From an uncultured Thermoleophilia bacterium (GTDB lineage: Bacteria; Actinomycetota; Thermoleophilia; UBA2241): a DNA stretch of 64,000 bases. The notes beneath the pieces were generated by a model. The model did not search any database and was not told the DNA's origin. It saw nothing but the letters and a program-made list of their open reading frames with translations. Position numbers and translations under genes: made by a program. The stretch's first letter is position 1. Each line of letters opens with the position of its first letter. The stretch spans positions 32,001-96,000 of the forward strand of contig CAVQSP010000011.1 of NCBI GenBank assembly GCA_963715985.1, read 5' to 3'. Positions 5,969 to 25,714 of the stretch are shown piece after piece.

Positions 5969-8830
5969 ATGGCATCGCGTATCCCGACGAGACTCGGCGA
6001 CGGTTCGCTGGTCGAGATGACCCGGGCGGAGATCGAGGCGGACCTCAACGCCGGCTCGGAGGTCGCCGTCAAACGGGCCAAGGTCGAGCCTCTTCCCCAG
6101 GACGACATCGACCACCTGCTCGACATCTTCACCTCCCCGGCCAAGTTCAGCGCCGTGGACTACGGCGACGAGGTGGTCCTCAGCTTCGACGGCTCCGGCA
6201 ACGCGGACATCGGCGCGCCGGTGCTCGAGCAGATCGTCTACCAGAACCACCACGGCGCCGACATGATCGAGCTCTGGCACCACGACTACTCGTACAAGGC
6301 CGTGCGCACCGTGCTCTCCTTCCAGACGCAGCTGCTCAAGGACGCGCAGCAGCAGACCGTGATCCCTCTCAACTACGGGGCGATGCCGGACCTGGGCCGC
6401 TACTCCATGCCGGACGGCCCGGCGAGGAACTGGTCGGAGCTGCTGCCGCTGGGCAAGGTCGACGAGGCCCGCGAGGCCCAGCTGGAGGCCGTGGAGCACC
6501 TCGAGAAGGACATGTGGTACGTGATCGAGGCCATGGTGGCGGCCGGCGTGGACGGCATCGACTTCGACACCGCCGGCGCCGCCGGGGACGCCGACCTGCT
6601 GGCCACGCTGCGCACGGCGCGCAAGCTGCGCGACACGTGGCCGGACATCGGCGTCGAGATCGGCCAGGCCTCCGAGCTCGTGCTCGGCATGCACGGGCAG
6701 CTCGAGTACGAGGGTACCCGGCTGGCCGGCCAGTGGCCGCTCGGCCAGCTCCGCGCCTGCACGGCCGCCGGCGCCACCATCTTCGGGCCGGCGGTGAACG
6801 TGAACACCACCAAGTCGCTGGCCTGGAACACCGCCCGCGCCTGTGCCCTGGTGAAGCCCGTCACCGCCGAGGCCAGCATCCCCGTGCACATGAACGCGGG
6901 CATGGGCGTCGGCGGCGTGCCCATGACCCCGTATCCGCCGGTGGACGCCACGTCGCGCGCCTCACGCGCGCTCGTCGACATCTGCAAGATCGACGGCTTG
7001 TAGGTCGGGGTCGGGGATCCCCTCGGGATGGCCTCGACACACGCGCTCGCCTCGGGCATGGGCGGGATGCGGACCGCCGGAGATCTGGTGGCCCGCATGC
7101 AGATGACCCGAGGCCTACGCCTTCCGCAGGCCAAGCAGTACGTGGCGGACAAGCTCGGCTGCTCCGTCGCCGACCTCGGCGACACCGTGGCGATGCACGA
7201 CATCCGCCGCGACCTCGGTCTCGGCCGCATCCAGGTGCAGGACCTCACCTACGCCGACCATCCGGGGGCCATGGAGGCCAAGTTCCACGTCGCCGAGGTG
7301 CTGGACATCCCCATCAACTCGGTGGAGCGCTTCAAGGCGCACGCCGGACTCGTGCTCATGAGCCCCTCACAGCTCGACCTGACGAGCCGCCAGCCGCTCC
7401 TGCCGCTGGGCTCGGACTTCCGCGTCACCTTCTACGACGCCGCCAAGCTGGAGCGTTACCGCGAGGCGGTCCTCGCGGTGCTGGAGCGCACCGGGGTGAA
7501 GTTCGGTTCACCCAAGGCGCTCGCGGTCCTCGAGGAGCACGGCGCCAACGTCGACCGCGCGTCCGGCGTCGTGCGCTTCCCGCCCGACCTCGTCGCGCGC
7601 GCTCTCGCGAGCGCCCCGCGCACCTTCTGGCTGGGCTCGCGCGACGGCACCCTCGACCTGGACCTCGCGAGCGGCGACACCTTCAACACGACGAACGGCT
7701 GCGGCACCGAGGTCGTGGACTGGCACACGGGCGAGCGACGCGCGCCGACCAAAGACGACCTCGCGGCCATCACGCGGATGATCGACTATCTGGGCTCCGT
7801 CCAGTTCTGGTGGCCCAACGTGGCCGCGGCGGACTGCGGCGACACCCACACCCTGCACGAGCTGGACGCCGCCTGGAACAACACGGCCAAGCACCTGCAG
7901 GGCATGGTGCAGGGCGAGCGCGAGGCCAGGTACGCGGTGGAGATGGCGATGGTGATCGCCGGCGGCGCGGAGCAGCTTCGCCGCCGTCCCCCGATGAGCA
8001 ACCTCATCGGCACGGTGCAGCCGCTCATCAACGACAAGGACGGCATCGAGGCGGCGCTGGTGTTCGCGGAGGCCGGCGTGCCCGTGTGTTTCGTCACGAT
8101 GCCCACGTATGGCACGACGGCGCCGGCAACGAAGGCCGGCGCCTACGTGATGGGCTTCGCCGAGCTCATCAGCGCCGCGGTGTGCGTACAGCTGGCGCAC
8201 CCCGGCGCCCCGGTGATCCTGTTCCCCCTGCCGGTGCACGCCGACCCGCGCACGGCGGCGCTCACGACGGCGCCGCTGAACCACCGCGGCCTCTTCCTGC
8301 CCGGCGAGCTGGTACACCACTTCGGCCTTCCGGCGATGACCGGGTACGCCGGCACCGACGACGACCTGCCGGGCACATGGCTGGCGGCCGCGGAGACGGC
8401 GCACACGGTGATGCTCGCCGGCATCGTGGGCTCGGAGCTGATGACCACCATCGGCCTCACCAACCGCTACCAGCTGTTCACGCCCGAGCACATGATGCTC
8501 GACGACGACCTCTACCGCCGCGCCGCCAACGCCTTCCGCGACCTCGAGCTCGACGAGGAGACGCTGGCTCTGGACGTCATCGACGCCGTCGGTCCGGGAG
8601 GTCACTTCCTCGGCCAGCCGCACACGCGCCGCCACATGAAGGAGACGGTGGAGCGCTCCATCGGCCAGGAGATCGGCCCGGACGGCACGCACCTGAGGAA
8701 CGCCGTGGAGGTCGCGCGCGAGCGCGGCCTCGACATCCTCGAGCACTACGTGCCGGAGCCGCTCGACGAAGCCAAAGCGGCGGAGCTGGCGCGCGTCATC
8801 GCCGCCGCCGACGCCGAGCTGCTCGGGTAG
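5969..8830 (+). CDS. mtbB: pyrrolysine-containing MtbB-like dimethylamine methyltransferase (TAG 7001-7003) reading in frame into a Pyl-free MttB-family domain (from ATG 7358)
   Basis: RLGDGS, YGAMPDLG, DFDTAGAAGDAD, FVLGMHG-type and GMGVGGVPM motifs; [16 protein letters not shown] continues in frame. No stop before the MttB-type sequence (VLERTGV...IDAVGPGGHFLGQPHT). Confidence 0.88.
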
Positions 8831-9053
8831 GCCCGGCCGGGGCGACCGCCAGGAGCGGTCCGCCGCCGCGCTCGGCAGCGCTGCAGGGCGGCGTTCGGTG
8901 TCGCGGCGGTCCCCGTACCCCGACACCGGTGGCAGCGAACGGCGCTTCGGCCGTGATAGCCCGGAAGCCATCGCGGCCGAGTCGTGAGAAGGGGTCTCCA
9001 CACGAGCGCACCGCCGACGGCCCGGCAGAGGGACGGCTCAGCCCGAAACGCGC

Positions 9054-24339: not shown

Positions 24340-25714
24340 CCTCGCGAAAGCGCTGGACGGAGTTGATCGGGATGTCGAGCAGCTCCGCTATGTGCACCTT
24401 TGCCTCCAGCCCGAGCGGCTCGCCCACGTAGGTGACCTCGCCGGCCTCGGTCATGGACCCGAGTCCGCGCTCCTTGCGCACCTCGAGCATGACGACCGGA
24501 TCGCTGAGGTCGTCCTCGGACACTCCGAGCCGCCCGGCTACATAGGCCTTGGCCTCGGTGAGTCGCATCCCCCGGGTCATCTGCATCCGCGCCACCAGGT
24601 CTCCGGCGGTGCGGACGCCTCCCATGCCCGAGGCGACGACGTGGCTCACGGCCTGGCCGTAGACGTCGCCGGCGCCTACCTACAAGCCGTCCAGCCGCAG
24701 CAGGTCCACGGCGGCGCGCGAGGCCCGCGACGTCGCGTCTCCCGGCGGCAGGATGTGCATGGGCACGCCCCCCACCCCCATGCCGCCGTTGAGGTGGACG
24801 GGGATGGTGGCCTGCTCGCAGCACGGCTTGCAGATCGCGATCGTGCGCGCCACGTTCCAGGCCACCGACTTGCCGGTGTTCACGTTGATCGCCGGCCCGT
24901 AGATGGTGGCGCCGGCCTTGGCCGCCAGCTTCATCTGCTCGAGGGGCCAGAGACCGGCCAGCCGCACGCCCTCGTACTCGAGCTCGCCGTGCATGCCGAG
25001 CACGAACTCGCTGGCCATGCCGATCTGGATGCCCAGATCGGGGTGCCGTGCGCGGATGCGCTCGATAGCCACGAGGGCCGCCAGGAAGTCGGCGTCGCCG
25101 GCGGCCCCCGACGTGTCCAGGTCGATGAAGTCGGCGCCCGCCTCGGCGAGGCCGTCCGCCACGTACACGATGTCGGCGGCGGCCTGCTCCACGGCCGCTT
25201 CCTGCGCCTCCCGCGCCTCGGCGTACCTGCCGAGCGGCAGCAACTGGGCCCAGTTGGGCAACGGCCCATCCGGCACCGTGTACAGACCCAGGTCCGGCAT
25301 GGCGCCGTACCCGCACGGCGTGGTGAGCAGGTACTGCGCCTGCCGCATGATCGTCTGCTCGTAGGGAACGACGGCCTTGGCAGGCTTGAACGAGTAGTCC
25401 TGATGGTAGAGCTCGACCGAGTCGGCGCAGAGGAACTGCTCGTAGTACTGCAGGTCGTGCACGCGCGTGCCGATGTCGTGGGCTCCGCTGCCGTCGTAGG
25501 TGAGGACGACCTCGTCGCCGATGTCCACGGCGCTGAAACGAGCCGCCGACGCGAAGATGTCCACCAGGTGCAGGATCTCATCGTCGGTGAGCGGCGGCAC
25601 TTTGGCGCGCTTCACCGCCGCCTCCACCCCGGCCCGCACCTCCTGCTCGATCTCCGCCCGGGTCATGCGCACCAGCGACCCGTCGCCCATGCGCGTCGGG
25701 ATGGATCGGTCCAC
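24311..25714 (-). CDS. mtbB: pyrrolysine-containing MtbB-like dimethylamine methyltransferase (TAG 24680-24682)
   Basis: GTG 25714 after [47 protein letters not shown] in frame with ORF 24311..24649. Confidence 0.9.

What the first reader, a model, noticed from the sequence alone, without database searches (positions are those of the whole stretch)
5969..25714. Five amber-recoded (pyrrolysine) methylamine methyltransferase genes in a probable actinobacterium
Seen: four MtbB paralogs (TAG at 7001, 10872, 20230c, 24680c) and one MttB (TAG at 12225), each continuing in frame with conserved sequence. Established: Methanosarcina MtbB ([13 protein letters not shown]) and MttB (VAGx-O-xDxK..GHEK) carry pyrrolysine at these sites; bacterial Pyl is best known from Firmicutes and Desulfobacterota. 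Inference: this host decodes UAG as Pyl and has an expanded, diverged MtbB family. The paralogs may act on different N-methyl amines, and an APC permease sits in the operon. Gene callers would split all five genes.
Basis: partly seen in the sequence, partly recalled or inferred. Interest (0 to 1): 0.92.

Follow-up and report, generated by a model that had tools for sequence, protein, structure and literature searches.

The report
Pyrrolysine methylamine methyltransferase genes in Thermoleophilia
Five methylamine methyltransferase genes of an uncultured high-GC soil or wetland actinobacterium each carry an in-frame TAG at the site where the 22nd amino acid, pyrrolysine, is inserted; the finding is real, but this trait has already been reported briefly for such bacteria.

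Summary
Four MtbB genes and one MttB gene carry one in-frame TAG each at the stated coordinates. Every TAG is the first base of an Rfam PYLIS match. The MttB TAG aligns with residue 334 of the solved Methanosarcina MttB.

The same genome, on another contig, encodes pylB, pylC, pylD, a tRNA with anticodon CUA, pylSn and pylSc. The reading "UAG is decoded as pyrrolysine" is therefore well supported.

The host belongs to the class Thermoleophilia, judged from the record titles of its nearest relatives. The trait is lineage-wide:
- 87 of 89 species genomes of its order have MtbB.
- 82 of 89 have PylSc, and 82 of 89 have PylSn.

The genome holds 23 Pyl-type genes (11 mtbB, 10 mttB, 2 mtmB). The four window paralogs fall in separate old orthogroups.

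- mttB is split by a one-base insertion that independent contigs lack, so it is probably an assembly error.
- The permease and a second MttB-like gene are broken in the same way.
- mtbB1 runs without a stop into a non-Pyl MttB-family gene, which is probably an artefact.
- No corrinoid protein lies in the window.

Pyl-encoding mtbB and mttB in Actinobacteriota are already in print (2022, 2023). This scan met the trait in at least 7 other genomes. It is a new member of a known kind.

The parts
5969..7357 (+). mtbB1, a Pyl-type dimethylamine methyltransferase paralog. The Pyl codon TAG is at 7001-7003. No stop codon precedes the next gene in this assembly.
   Evidence: PF09505 E 2.2e-160. TIGR02368 418.6 bits, cut-off 369.1. 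PYLIS_2 at 7001-7100, 65.3 bits. For the junction.
7358..8830 (+). Non-Pyl MttB-superfamily methyltransferase of unknown substrate. It has no internal TAG, is in frame with mtbB1 and ends in TAG 8828-8830.
   Evidence: PF06253 E 1.3e-54. TIGR02369 279.5 bits, below the cut-off of 525. Nearest solved chains are glycine betaine methyltransferases 9yce/2qne, E 3e-43. The gene pair is kept as neighbours in about two dozen congeners.
9054..9761 (-). TetR-family regulator (BetI-type C-terminal domain), divergent from mtbB2.
   Evidence: PF00440 E 2.8e-12 and PF13977 E 6.8e-6.
9840..11246 (+). mtbB2. The Pyl codon TAG is at 10872-10874 and the stop TGA at 11244-11246, overlapping the GTG start of mttB.
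   Evidence: PF09505 E 5.2e-164. TIGR02368 422.1 bits. PYLIS_2 at 10872-10971, 65.3 bits. Sequence read.
11243..12713 (+). mttB, a Pyl-type trimethylamine methyltransferase. The Pyl codon TAG is at 12225-12227. The gene is split into two frames by one extra base near 11697-11701.
   Evidence: MTTB profile positions 21-155 and 162-494 lie in adjacent frames. The C-terminal piece scores 494.9 bits on TIGR02369. The TAG aligns with K334 of PDB 7xcm. PYLIS_3 at 12225-12324, 73.8 bits. Contigs of runs X2 and X16 lack one base at 11697.
12727..14340 (+). APC-family amino acid/amine permease, read in at least three frames in this assembly.
   Evidence: PF13520 matches on two pieces. Independent contigs differ by single-base indels at 13030, 13992, 14145, 14165 and 14189.
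14300..15800 (+). Second non-Pyl MttB-superfamily gene, frameshifted in this assembly.
   Evidence: MTTB profile positions 10-205 and 207-493 lie in two frames. PF06253 E 1.8e-32 on the C-terminal piece. Indels at 14609 and 14920/14921 in independent contigs.
15887..18707 (-). ABC transporter operon with an ATPase, a permease and an ABC_sub_bind-type binding protein.
   Evidence: PF00005, PF02653 and PF04392 (E 3.2e-86).
19879..21270 (-). mtbB3. The Pyl codon TAG is at 20230-20232. The gene ends in a second TAG at 19879-19881.
   Evidence: PF09505 E 9.7e-163. TIGR02368 430.2 bits. PYLIS_2 at 20133-20232, 63.7 bits. The terminal TAG is seen.
24311..25732 (-). mtbB4, the paralog whose motif differs most from the other three window copies after the Pyl site ([10 protein letters not shown]). 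The Pyl codon TAG is at 24680-24682.
   Evidence: PF09505 E 2.1e-162. TIGR02368 407.6 bits. PYLIS_2 at 24583-24682, 53 bits. Orthologues in two other genera keep GDVYGQ.

Best explanation
The window holds four paralogous Pyl-type MtbB genes and one Pyl-type MttB gene of an uncultured Thermoleophilia bacterium.

In these genes the internal UAG is read as pyrrolysine. The tRNA-Pyl (CUA) is charged by a split PylSn + PylSc synthetase, and pyrrolysine is made from lysine by PylB, PylC and PylD. All of these are encoded about 550-560 kb along another contig.

The enzymes act as the first methyltransferase of a corrinoid relay. Pyrrolysine binds and activates the methylamine, and the methyl group passes to the Co(I) of a corrinoid protein encoded elsewhere in the genome. 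From there it most likely goes to tetrahydrofolate through a pterin-binding methyltransferase. It then enters the acetyl-CoA synthase (Wood-Ljungdahl) route or is oxidised.

Shown here: the gene families, the position of the TAG codons, the pyl genes, and the conservation across the order.

Inferred: that Pyl is actually inserted, the substrate (dimethylamine for MtbB, trimethylamine for MttB), and the downstream route.

UAG stays an ordinary stop codon elsewhere in the genome. Decoding is therefore dual, probably limited by context or by regulated expression of the pyl genes.
For: TAG positions and gene families:
- Family matches exceed curated cut-offs.
- PYLIS_2 and PYLIS_3 matches start at each TAG.
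- The MttB TAG aligns with residue 334 of PDB 7xcm.

pyl machinery:
- pylSc scores 316 bits (cut-off 178). pylC scores 318 (cut-off 248) and pylD 199.5 (cut-off 150).
- pylB scores 304.8 + 126.4 bits in two frames.
- The tRNA-Pyl (cta) is at C13:555126-555198.
- pylSn scores 124.6 bits, cut-off 51.

Conservation:
- MtbB is in 87 of 89 genomes of the order, and all 150 listed full-length matches have exactly one TAG.
- PylSc is in 82 of 89 and PylSn in 82 of 89.
- The two small, 98%-complete genomes that lack MtbB also lack PylSc and PylSn.
- 40 of 40 full-length MtbB copies from 5 genera keep a TAG at the same motif.

Downstream parts in the genome:
- About 20 corrinoid protein loci.
- Two RamA-like activators.
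- Four pterin-binding matches.
- A CdhC/AcsB match.

Print: PMC10805028 (passages read) reports Actinobacteriota MAGs expressing Pyl-encoding mttB and mtbB.
Against: - There is no protein or RNA evidence for this genome.
- No corrinoid protein, second methyltransferase or activator lies in the window. The nearest corrinoid locus is about 20 kb before the window start.
- TAG ends about 18% of long coding ORFs (403 of 2205), with no closer back-up stop than after TGA. The genome therefore shows no adaptation to frequent UAG read-through.
- mttB, pylB and several neighbours are frameshifted as assembled. If those shifts were real, some of these genes would be dead.
- The four window MtbB score lower on TIGR02368 (408-430 bits) than the paralog on contig C4 (525 bits). 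They sit in a clade apart from the most canonical copies, so dimethylamine is not assured as their substrate.
- The bin is 88.8% complete with 7.3% contamination.
Confidence: 0.88

Rival explanations
1. The diverged MtbB paralogs of the window are Pyl enzymes, but not dimethylamine methyltransferases. Each orthogroup would demethylate a different secondary or tertiary N-methyl amine. An example is the product left by the neighbouring non-Pyl MttB-family quaternary-amine demethylase.
For: - The four paralogs are 57-67% identical to each other and 45-50% identical to the most canonical copies.
- Each lies in its own supported orthogroup with members from other genera.
- The residues just after Pyl differ between orthogroups. 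They recur within the mtbB4 group (GDVYGQ in 3 of its 4 members) and in other groups.
- mtbB1 plus a non-Pyl MttB-family gene is a conserved pair in about two dozen congeners.
- A BetI-type TetR, an APC permease and an ABC transporter sit alongside.
Against: - All four pass the NCBIfam equivalog cut-off for dimethylamine methyltransferase.
- Methanosarcina also keeps several MtbB copies for one substrate (recalled).
- No MtbB structure is solved (0 PDB matches), so no substrate pocket could be compared.
- No assay was possible.
Confidence: 0.3
2. The TAG codons are real stops. The genes would then be truncated or split relics, or would make two-piece proteins, and no pyrrolysine would be inserted.
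For: - TAG is a common stop in this genome.
- Several neighbours look broken.
- Gene callers report only the 344-residue fragments.
Against: - The coding signal (GC3) continues in frame past each TAG.
- The downstream 120 residues match the family profile to its end.
- The TAG is kept at one column in 40 of 40 copies across 5 genera, whereas relics would decay at random.
- The complete pyl machinery co-occurs with these genes and is lost together with them.
Confidence: 0.03
3. The pairing of mtb/mtt genes with pyl genes is a binning artefact, and the two contigs come from different organisms.
For: Contamination of the bin is estimated at 7.3%. The pyl cassette and the window lie on different contigs.
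Against: - Both contigs are about 0.7 Mb long with the same G+C (0.696 and 0.706).
- C13 itself carries an MtbB and MttB genes with TAG.
- The co-occurrence holds in 80 or more other genomes of the order.
Confidence: 0.02
4. The frameshifts in mttB, the permease, the second MttB-like gene and pylB are real. This strain would then be losing the pathway.
For: They are present in the only assembly available. The cytochrome gene at 47645-49735 also has a private TAG.
Against: - At 11697, 13030, 13992, 14145, 14165, 14189, 14609, 14920/21 and 18840, short contigs of independent public runs differ from the window by single-base indels.
- Nearly all of these are one extra base in the window.
- Such breaks are spread over unrelated genes, including nadE, an undecaprenyl phosphatase and an aldehyde oxidoreductase.
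- The laid contigs are mostly 90-99% alike, so they are related strains, not this strain.
Confidence: 0.12

Closest known systems
MtbB1/2/3 of Methanosarcina (dimethylamine:corrinoid methyltransferase; Pfam PF09505, NCBIfam TIGR02368, Rfam PYLIS_2 RF02509)
   Same: The family matches at full length and above the curated cut-offs. There is one in-frame UAG at the homologous codon. Several paralogs occur per genome.
   Different: The host is bacterial (Thermoleophilia). No mtbC lies next to the window copies. There are 11 loci per genome in at least 9 old orthogroups. The window copies belong to a clade that scores lower than the canonical-like copies. The methyl acceptor downstream is probably tetrahydrofolate, not coenzyme M (inference).
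MttB of Methanosarcina barkeri (PDB 7XCL/7XCM/7XCN; TIGR02369; Rfam PYLIS_3 RF02510)
   Same: E 1e-91 over residues 166-491. The TAG aligns with residue 334. The flanking motif VAGxOxDxK...GHEK is present in 10 genes of this genome.
   Different: The gene is split by a one-base insertion in this assembly. It starts by a GTGA overlap with mtbB2 and is followed by a permease, not by mttC.
Pyl-decoding bacteria with split PylSn + PylSc (Desulfitobacterium, Acetohalobium, Bilophila; names recalled), and the two Actinobacteria listed in PMC9630628
   Same: pylSn and pylSc are separate genes. A pylBCD cassette has pylT beside it. UAG is still used as a stop.
   Different: PMC9630628 lists no PylSn for its two actinobacterial genomes (supplement file 3, rows seen). 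Here PylSn is found in 82 of 89 genomes of the order. The Pyl gene set (23 genes) is much larger than the one or few genes that I recall for those bacteria; those counts come from no call.
Actinobacteriota MAGs of Stordalen Mire that express Pyl-encoding mttB and mtbB (PMC10805028, passages read)
   Same: The phylum, gene types, wetland setting and amber-truncated gene calls are the same.
   Different: That paper gives one sentence and a figure. I found no account there of the pyl genes, paralog number or lineage-wide distribution. I did not establish whether its MAGs belong to the same order.

Membership tests
MtbB (TIGR02368 / PF09505) | Full-length match above the curated cut-off | tested here: met
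   The four genes score 408-430 bits, cut-off 369.1. Pfam gives 534-547 bits.
MtbB (TIGR02368 / PF09505) | A single in-frame UAG at the pyrrolysine codon of reference mtbB genes | tested here: met
   PYLIS_2 model position 1 falls on each TAG. 40 of 40 copies keep a TAG at the same motif.
MtbB (TIGR02368 / PF09505) | Cognate corrinoid protein (MtbC) encoded alongside | tested here: not met
   No corrinoid protein lies in the window, while about 20 loci lie elsewhere. One of them is next to the mtbB at C14:693-695 kb.
MtbB (TIGR02368 / PF09505) | Methylates its corrinoid protein with dimethylamine | not testable with these tools
   This needs an enzyme assay.
MttB (TIGR02369 / PF06253, Pyl type) | UAG at the position of Pyl334 of M. 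barkeri MttB | tested here: met
The alignment to 7xcm_A puts the TAG on residue 334. PYLIS_3 scores 73.8 bits starting at 12225.
MttB (TIGR02369 / PF06253, Pyl type) | Whole-protein score above the equivalog cut-off, with an intact frame | tested here: inconclusive
   The C-terminal 336 residues alone score 494.9 bits against a cut-off of 525. The N-terminal 152 residues are in another frame. Independent contigs lack the extra base.
Pyrrolysine decoding trait (pylT, pylS, pylBCD) | tRNA with CUA anticodon called as tRNA-Pyl | tested here: met
   ARAGORN calls it at C13:555126-555198. It lies just after pylD.
Pyrrolysine decoding trait (pylT, pylS, pylBCD) | Pyrrolysyl-tRNA synthetase (PylSc, and PylSn in bacteria) | tested here: met
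   TIGR02367 scores 316 bits, cut-off 178. TIGR03912 scores 124.6 bits, cut-off 51.
Pyrrolysine decoding trait (pylT, pylS, pylBCD) | Biosynthesis genes pylB, pylC and pylD | tested here: met
   pylC scores 317.9 (cut-off 248.3) and pylD 199.5 (cut-off 150.05). pylB scores 304.8 + 126.4 bits in two overlapping frames against a cut-off of 348.2, so it is split by a frameshift as assembled.
Pyrrolysine decoding trait (pylT, pylS, pylBCD) | Pyrrolysine found in the protein at the UAG position | not testable with these tools
   This needs mass spectrometry.

The most novel reading that the evidence does not exclude
The family-wide, anciently diverged MtbB orthogroups, four of them in this window, would be pyrrolysine enzymes for N-methyl amines other than dimethylamine. 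They would work in series with the adjacent non-Pyl MttB-family quaternary-amine demethylases. These wetland Thermoleophilia could then strip several or all methyl groups from compounds such as glycine betaine or choline under anoxia. That would widen the known chemistry of pyrrolysine beyond mono-, di- and trimethylamine.
Probability: 0.3. Interest if true: 0.7.

Novelty: new member of a known kind. Interest (0 to 1): 0.4.

Why it matters
Pyrrolysine use is best documented in methanogens, Firmicutes and Deltaproteobacteria. Here a whole order of uncultured Thermoleophilia carries the machinery almost universally, with about two dozen Pyl genes in this genome.

This matters in three ways:
- Standard gene calling truncates every one of these genes, so methylamine turnover by soil and wetland Actinomycetota is under-counted in metagenome surveys.
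- These bacteria may compete with methylotrophic methanogens for methylamines, which bears on wetland methane budgets.
- The many conserved MtbB orthogroups are a ready set of candidates for new Pyl-dependent substrates.

The concept itself is already published, and this scan has met it in other genomes.

Tried and rejected
- **RNA evidence.** No RNA holder was listed by the look-up of sequencing runs. Run X20 is only guessed to be RNA and holds 0.05 of the words. Its contigs, laid, are no evidence of expression.
- **TAG sites in the laid contigs.** One search printed only 40 of 956 base differences, and none falls on a TAG site. That is not proof that the sites are unchanged.
- **Indels at the mtbB1/MttB-like junction (about 7350).** One search printed 12 of 38 indel rows and none lies there. 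The junction is unresolved by reads.
- **Long open frames around MtbB in G049, G065 and G083.** I took these as possible MtbB-MttB fusions. They are only upstream extensions or neighbours in other frames, and I rejected them.
- **PDB search with MtbB2.** It gave 0 matches at E 0.01, so no structural comparison of substrate pockets was possible.
- **Careful maximum-likelihood tree.** It did not finish in 288 s. The tree used is the quick IQ-TREE tree with SH-aLRT support only. The three split MtbB loci of G000 and two G039 copies without loci were left out.
- **Cytochrome TAG at 49094 as a new Pyl protein.** Rejected: no match in the 52 relatives has a stop at that site, and two orthologues read GAG.
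- **Back-up stops after TAG.** None were found.
- **Literature searches.**
  - 'Thermoleophilia' + 'pyrrolysine' returned 1 unrelated paper.
  - 'RBG-16-64-13' returned 5 papers, of which 3 were listed, and none is on Pyl machinery.
  - A four-term search (Thermoleophilia, mttB, methyltransferase, corrinoid; at least 3 required) listed 20 of 126 papers, none holding 'Thermoleophilia'.
  - 'pyrrolysine' + 'Actinobacteriota' found 5 papers.
  - PMC11264602 (passages read) does not mention pyrrolysine or Actinobacteriota.
- **PylSc sequences in the supplement of PMC9630628.** I compared them with ours by eye only, with no tool alignment.
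Full report
**1. The observation**

Under table 11, ORFs stop at TAG 7001-7003, 10872-10874 and 12225-12227 on the + strand, and at 20230-20232 and 24680-24682 on the - strand. With TAG read through, every frame stays open.

The read-through products match known families:
- The four MtbB match Pfam Dimeth_Pyl over profile positions 3-4 (8 for the trimmed mtbB3 query) to 461-462 of 463 (E 2e-160 to 5e-164).
- The fifth gene matches MTTB (E 2e-69).
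- The four MtbB also pass the NCBIfam equivalog cut-off for [dimethylamine--corrinoid protein] Co-methyltransferase, at 408-430 bits against 369.1.

Rfam places each TAG on the pyrrolysine codon of reference genes:
- PYLIS_2 (mtbB) matches start exactly at 7001, 10872, 20232c and 24682c, with 53-65 bits against a gathering score of 36.
- PYLIS_3 (mttB) starts at 12225 with 73.8 bits against 38.

I tested it here. These models cover coding sequence, so they show homology of position and do not show a working RNA signal.

In the alignment with the solved M. barkeri MttB (7xcm_A, E 1e-91), the TAG falls on chain residue 334. I recall residue 334 as the Pyl site.

**2. The decoding machinery**

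The window is G000:C11:32001-96000 of a 4.35 Mb, 22-contig, 70% G+C bin that is 88.8% complete with 7.3% contamination. Contig C13 carries the following genes within 9 kb:
- pylB, in two overlapping frames (304.8 and 126.4 bits).
- pylC (317.9 bits, cut-off 248.3).
- pylD (199.5 bits, cut-off 150.05).
- A tRNA that ARAGORN calls tRNA-Pyl (cta), at 555126-555198.
- pylSn (124.6 bits, cut-off 51.15).
- A corrinoid protein.
- pylSc on the opposite strand (316 bits, cut-off 178.15).

**3. The organism, and how general the trait is**

The 33 species genomes with the closest PylSc (68-79% identity) are mostly titled Thermoleophilia bacterium. The count is 28 Thermoleophilia, 2 Actinomycetes, 1 Actinomycetota and 1 uncultured Actinomycetes. 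One is titled Deltaproteobacteria, which I take to be a mislabel or misbinned contig.

In the 89 species genomes of the window's order (one family, 11 genera):
- MtbB is found in 87, and each of the 150 listed full-length matches has exactly one TAG.
- PylSc is found in 82.
- PylSn is found in 82.
- Two small (1.7-1.8 Mb), 98%-complete genomes lack all three. One 93%-complete genome (G045) has MtbB but neither synthetase part. The other misses are in bins 53-84% complete.

In an even sample of 301 genomes of the class, PylSc occurs in 51 of 55 genomes of the window's family. It also occurs in 9 of 55 of one other family, and in 0 of 190 genomes of ten further families.

**4. Size and shape of the gene family**

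The genome holds three kinds of Pyl-type gene:
- 11 MtbB loci, each with one TAG. Eight are whole and three are split over frames.
- 10 MttB genes with TAG in the motif VAGxOxDxK...GHEK (AHEK and AYEK in two copies).
- 2 MtmB genes with TAG.

That makes 23 Pyl-type genes. There are also several dozen non-Pyl MttB-superfamily genes (89 profile matches, many of them pieces) and 5 non-Pyl MtmB homologues.

The window paralogs are 57-67% identical to each other. They are 45-50% identical to the two copies that score highest on the family models.

I built a quick IQ-TREE tree of 40 full-length copies from 6 genomes of 5 genera. Support is SH-aLRT only, because the careful search did not finish. The three split loci of G000 were left out.
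- Each window paralog lies in its own supported clade with copies from other genomes; for mtbB1, mtbB3 and mtbB4 these include other genera, for mtbB2 only its congener G039.
- The family falls into a clade of 8 copies and a clade of 32 copies that contains all four window genes.

The residues right after Pyl differ between orthogroups. They recur within several of them, for example GDVYGQ in three of the four members of the mtbB4 group. The duplications are therefore old and retained. This is compatible with different substrates but does not prove them.

**5. Corrections to the gene models**

*mttB.* It begins at GTG 11243, overlapping the TGA of mtbB2. It runs to 11698 and continues one frame over from 11703.

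*Frameshifts in general.* Contigs of public runs that hold related strains were laid on 5900-25800 at 90% likeness or better.
- They lack one base at 11697 (X2 11.9 of 11.9 depth, X16 6.97 of 10.2).
- They differ by single-base indels at 13030, 13992, 14145, 14165, 14189 (permease), 14609, 14920/14921 (second MttB-like gene) and 18840 (nadE).
- Such breaks also hit pylB and unrelated genes.
- Nearly all are one extra base in the window.

I read them as assembly indel errors. The laid contigs are not from the same strain, so a real, private loss is not excluded (about 0.12).

*mtbB1.* It has no stop and runs in frame into a non-Pyl MttB-family gene (ATG 7358, stop TAG 8828).
- In the two closest orthologous loci (88% and 81% identity) an in-frame TGA separates the genes.
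- About two dozen other congeners keep them as adjacent separate genes.
- A TGA overlapping the ATG lies one frame over at 7359-7361.

The fusion is therefore probably an artefact or private to this strain.

**6. Neighbourhood**

The window also holds:
- A BetI-type TetR regulator, divergent from mtbB2.
- An APC permease after mttB.
- A second non-Pyl MttB-family gene.
- An ABC transporter.
- nadE.
- Beyond mtbB4, an FMN reductase, an Fe-S protein and a molybdopterin oxidoreductase.

No corrinoid protein, second methyltransferase or activator is in the window. The genome has about 20 corrinoid protein loci. One of them lies in a canonical-looking mtmB-mtmC, mtbB-mtbC, mttC-mttB cluster at C14:682-698 kb.

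The genome also has two RamA-like activators, four pterin-binding matches and a CdhC/AcsB match. One activator, one pterin-binding match and the CdhC/AcsB match cluster at C11:145-152 kb. This supports, by inference, methyl transfer to tetrahydrofolate and an acetyl-CoA synthase route.

**7. How UAG is used elsewhere**

I examined 2205 long ORFs whose ends look coding. TGA ends 1733, TAG ends 403 (18%) and TAA ends 69.
- Coding signal continues in frame after 49 of the TAGs (12%), against 75 of the TGAs (4%). The excess is about the size of the Pyl gene set.
- The next TGA or TAA after a TAG stop is a median 95 codons away. That is no closer than after TGA, where the median is 68.

UAG is thus a normal stop in this genome. 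Pyl insertion must be limited by context, by competition with release factor, or by regulated pyl expression (inference). mtbB3 itself ends in TAG, and 9 of the 40 copies have a second TAG at their end.

**8. What is already known**

- PMC9630628 (passages and supplement rows read) lists PylRS in "two Actinobacteria". These are an Actinobacteria bacterium and a Thermoleophilia bacterium, and no PylSn is entered for either.
- PMC11764691 (one passage read) repeats this count.
- My searches for Thermoleophilia with pyrrolysine, and for RBG-16-64-13, found nothing on the pyl genes, paralog numbers or lineage-wide spread.
- Subscription journals are not covered, and bioRxiv supplements are closed.
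- This scan has noted the same trait on other DNA in at least 7 genomes.

**9. Verdict**

The finding is real and the reading is right. It is a well-supported new member of a known kind.

- The near-universal presence of MtbB, PylSc and PylSn across one order.
- The count of 23 Pyl genes.
- The old MtbB orthogroups.
- The conserved mtbB plus non-Pyl MttB pair.
- The unadapted use of TAG as a stop.
- The evidence that the broken genes are assembly errors.

Noticed in passing
window 47645-49735 (TAG at 49094-49096): A multihaem cytochrome c gene has an in-frame TAG right after a CxxCH motif (CASCHNA-TAG-LDG). No match in the 52 relatives has a stop at that site, and two orthologues read GAG (Glu). 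It is a private nonsense change or a base error, not a conserved Pyl site.
   Followed up: yes
window 19879-19881, and loci L010, L013, L017, L065, L075, L081, L085, L086, L093: mtbB3 ends in TAG. In all, 9 of 40 MtbB copies have a second TAG at their C-terminal end, so the same codon would serve as Pyl and as the terminator within one gene.
   Followed up: partly
window 25926-30429 (- strand): Next to mtbB4 lie an FMN reductase, a 4Fe-4S dicluster protein and a molybdopterin oxidoreductase with a pyrogallol-hydroxytransferase-like first domain. The oxidoreductase is split over two frames.
   Followed up: no
G023 and G024 (same genus as the window): Two 1.7-1.8 Mb, 98%-complete, 1-2 contig genomes lack MtbB, PylSc and PylSn together. 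They look like a streamlined sublineage that lost the whole trait.
   Followed up: partly
G000 whole genome: 49 TAG codons have coding signal continuing in frame on both sides. About half coincide with MtbB, MttB or MtmB genes. The rest were not examined and may be same-frame neighbours or further Pyl candidates.
   Followed up: no
G000:C11:144815-151919: A CdhC/AcsB match (in two frames), a RamA-like activator and a pterin-binding methyltransferase lie within 7 kb, about 50 kb past the window end. This is a Wood-Ljungdahl-type cluster.
   Followed up: partly
L030 (JBLMXT010000180.1): A 5.7 kb contig titled Deltaproteobacteria bacterium carries a PylSc 77% identical to the window genome's, within the range of the Thermoleophilia hits. 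It is probably a mislabelled or misbinned contig.
   Followed up: no
class-level sample, family f4: A second family of the class has PylSc in 9 of 55 sampled genomes. Ten other families have none in 190. Patchy inheritance or transfer within the class was not resolved.
   Followed up: no
window 41526-46276 (- strand): dnaK, a small HSP20, grpE and a MerR/HspR-type regulator lie together, and a myo-inositol-1-phosphate synthase lies at 58246-61476. From recall, both fit an actinobacterial host.
   Followed up: no
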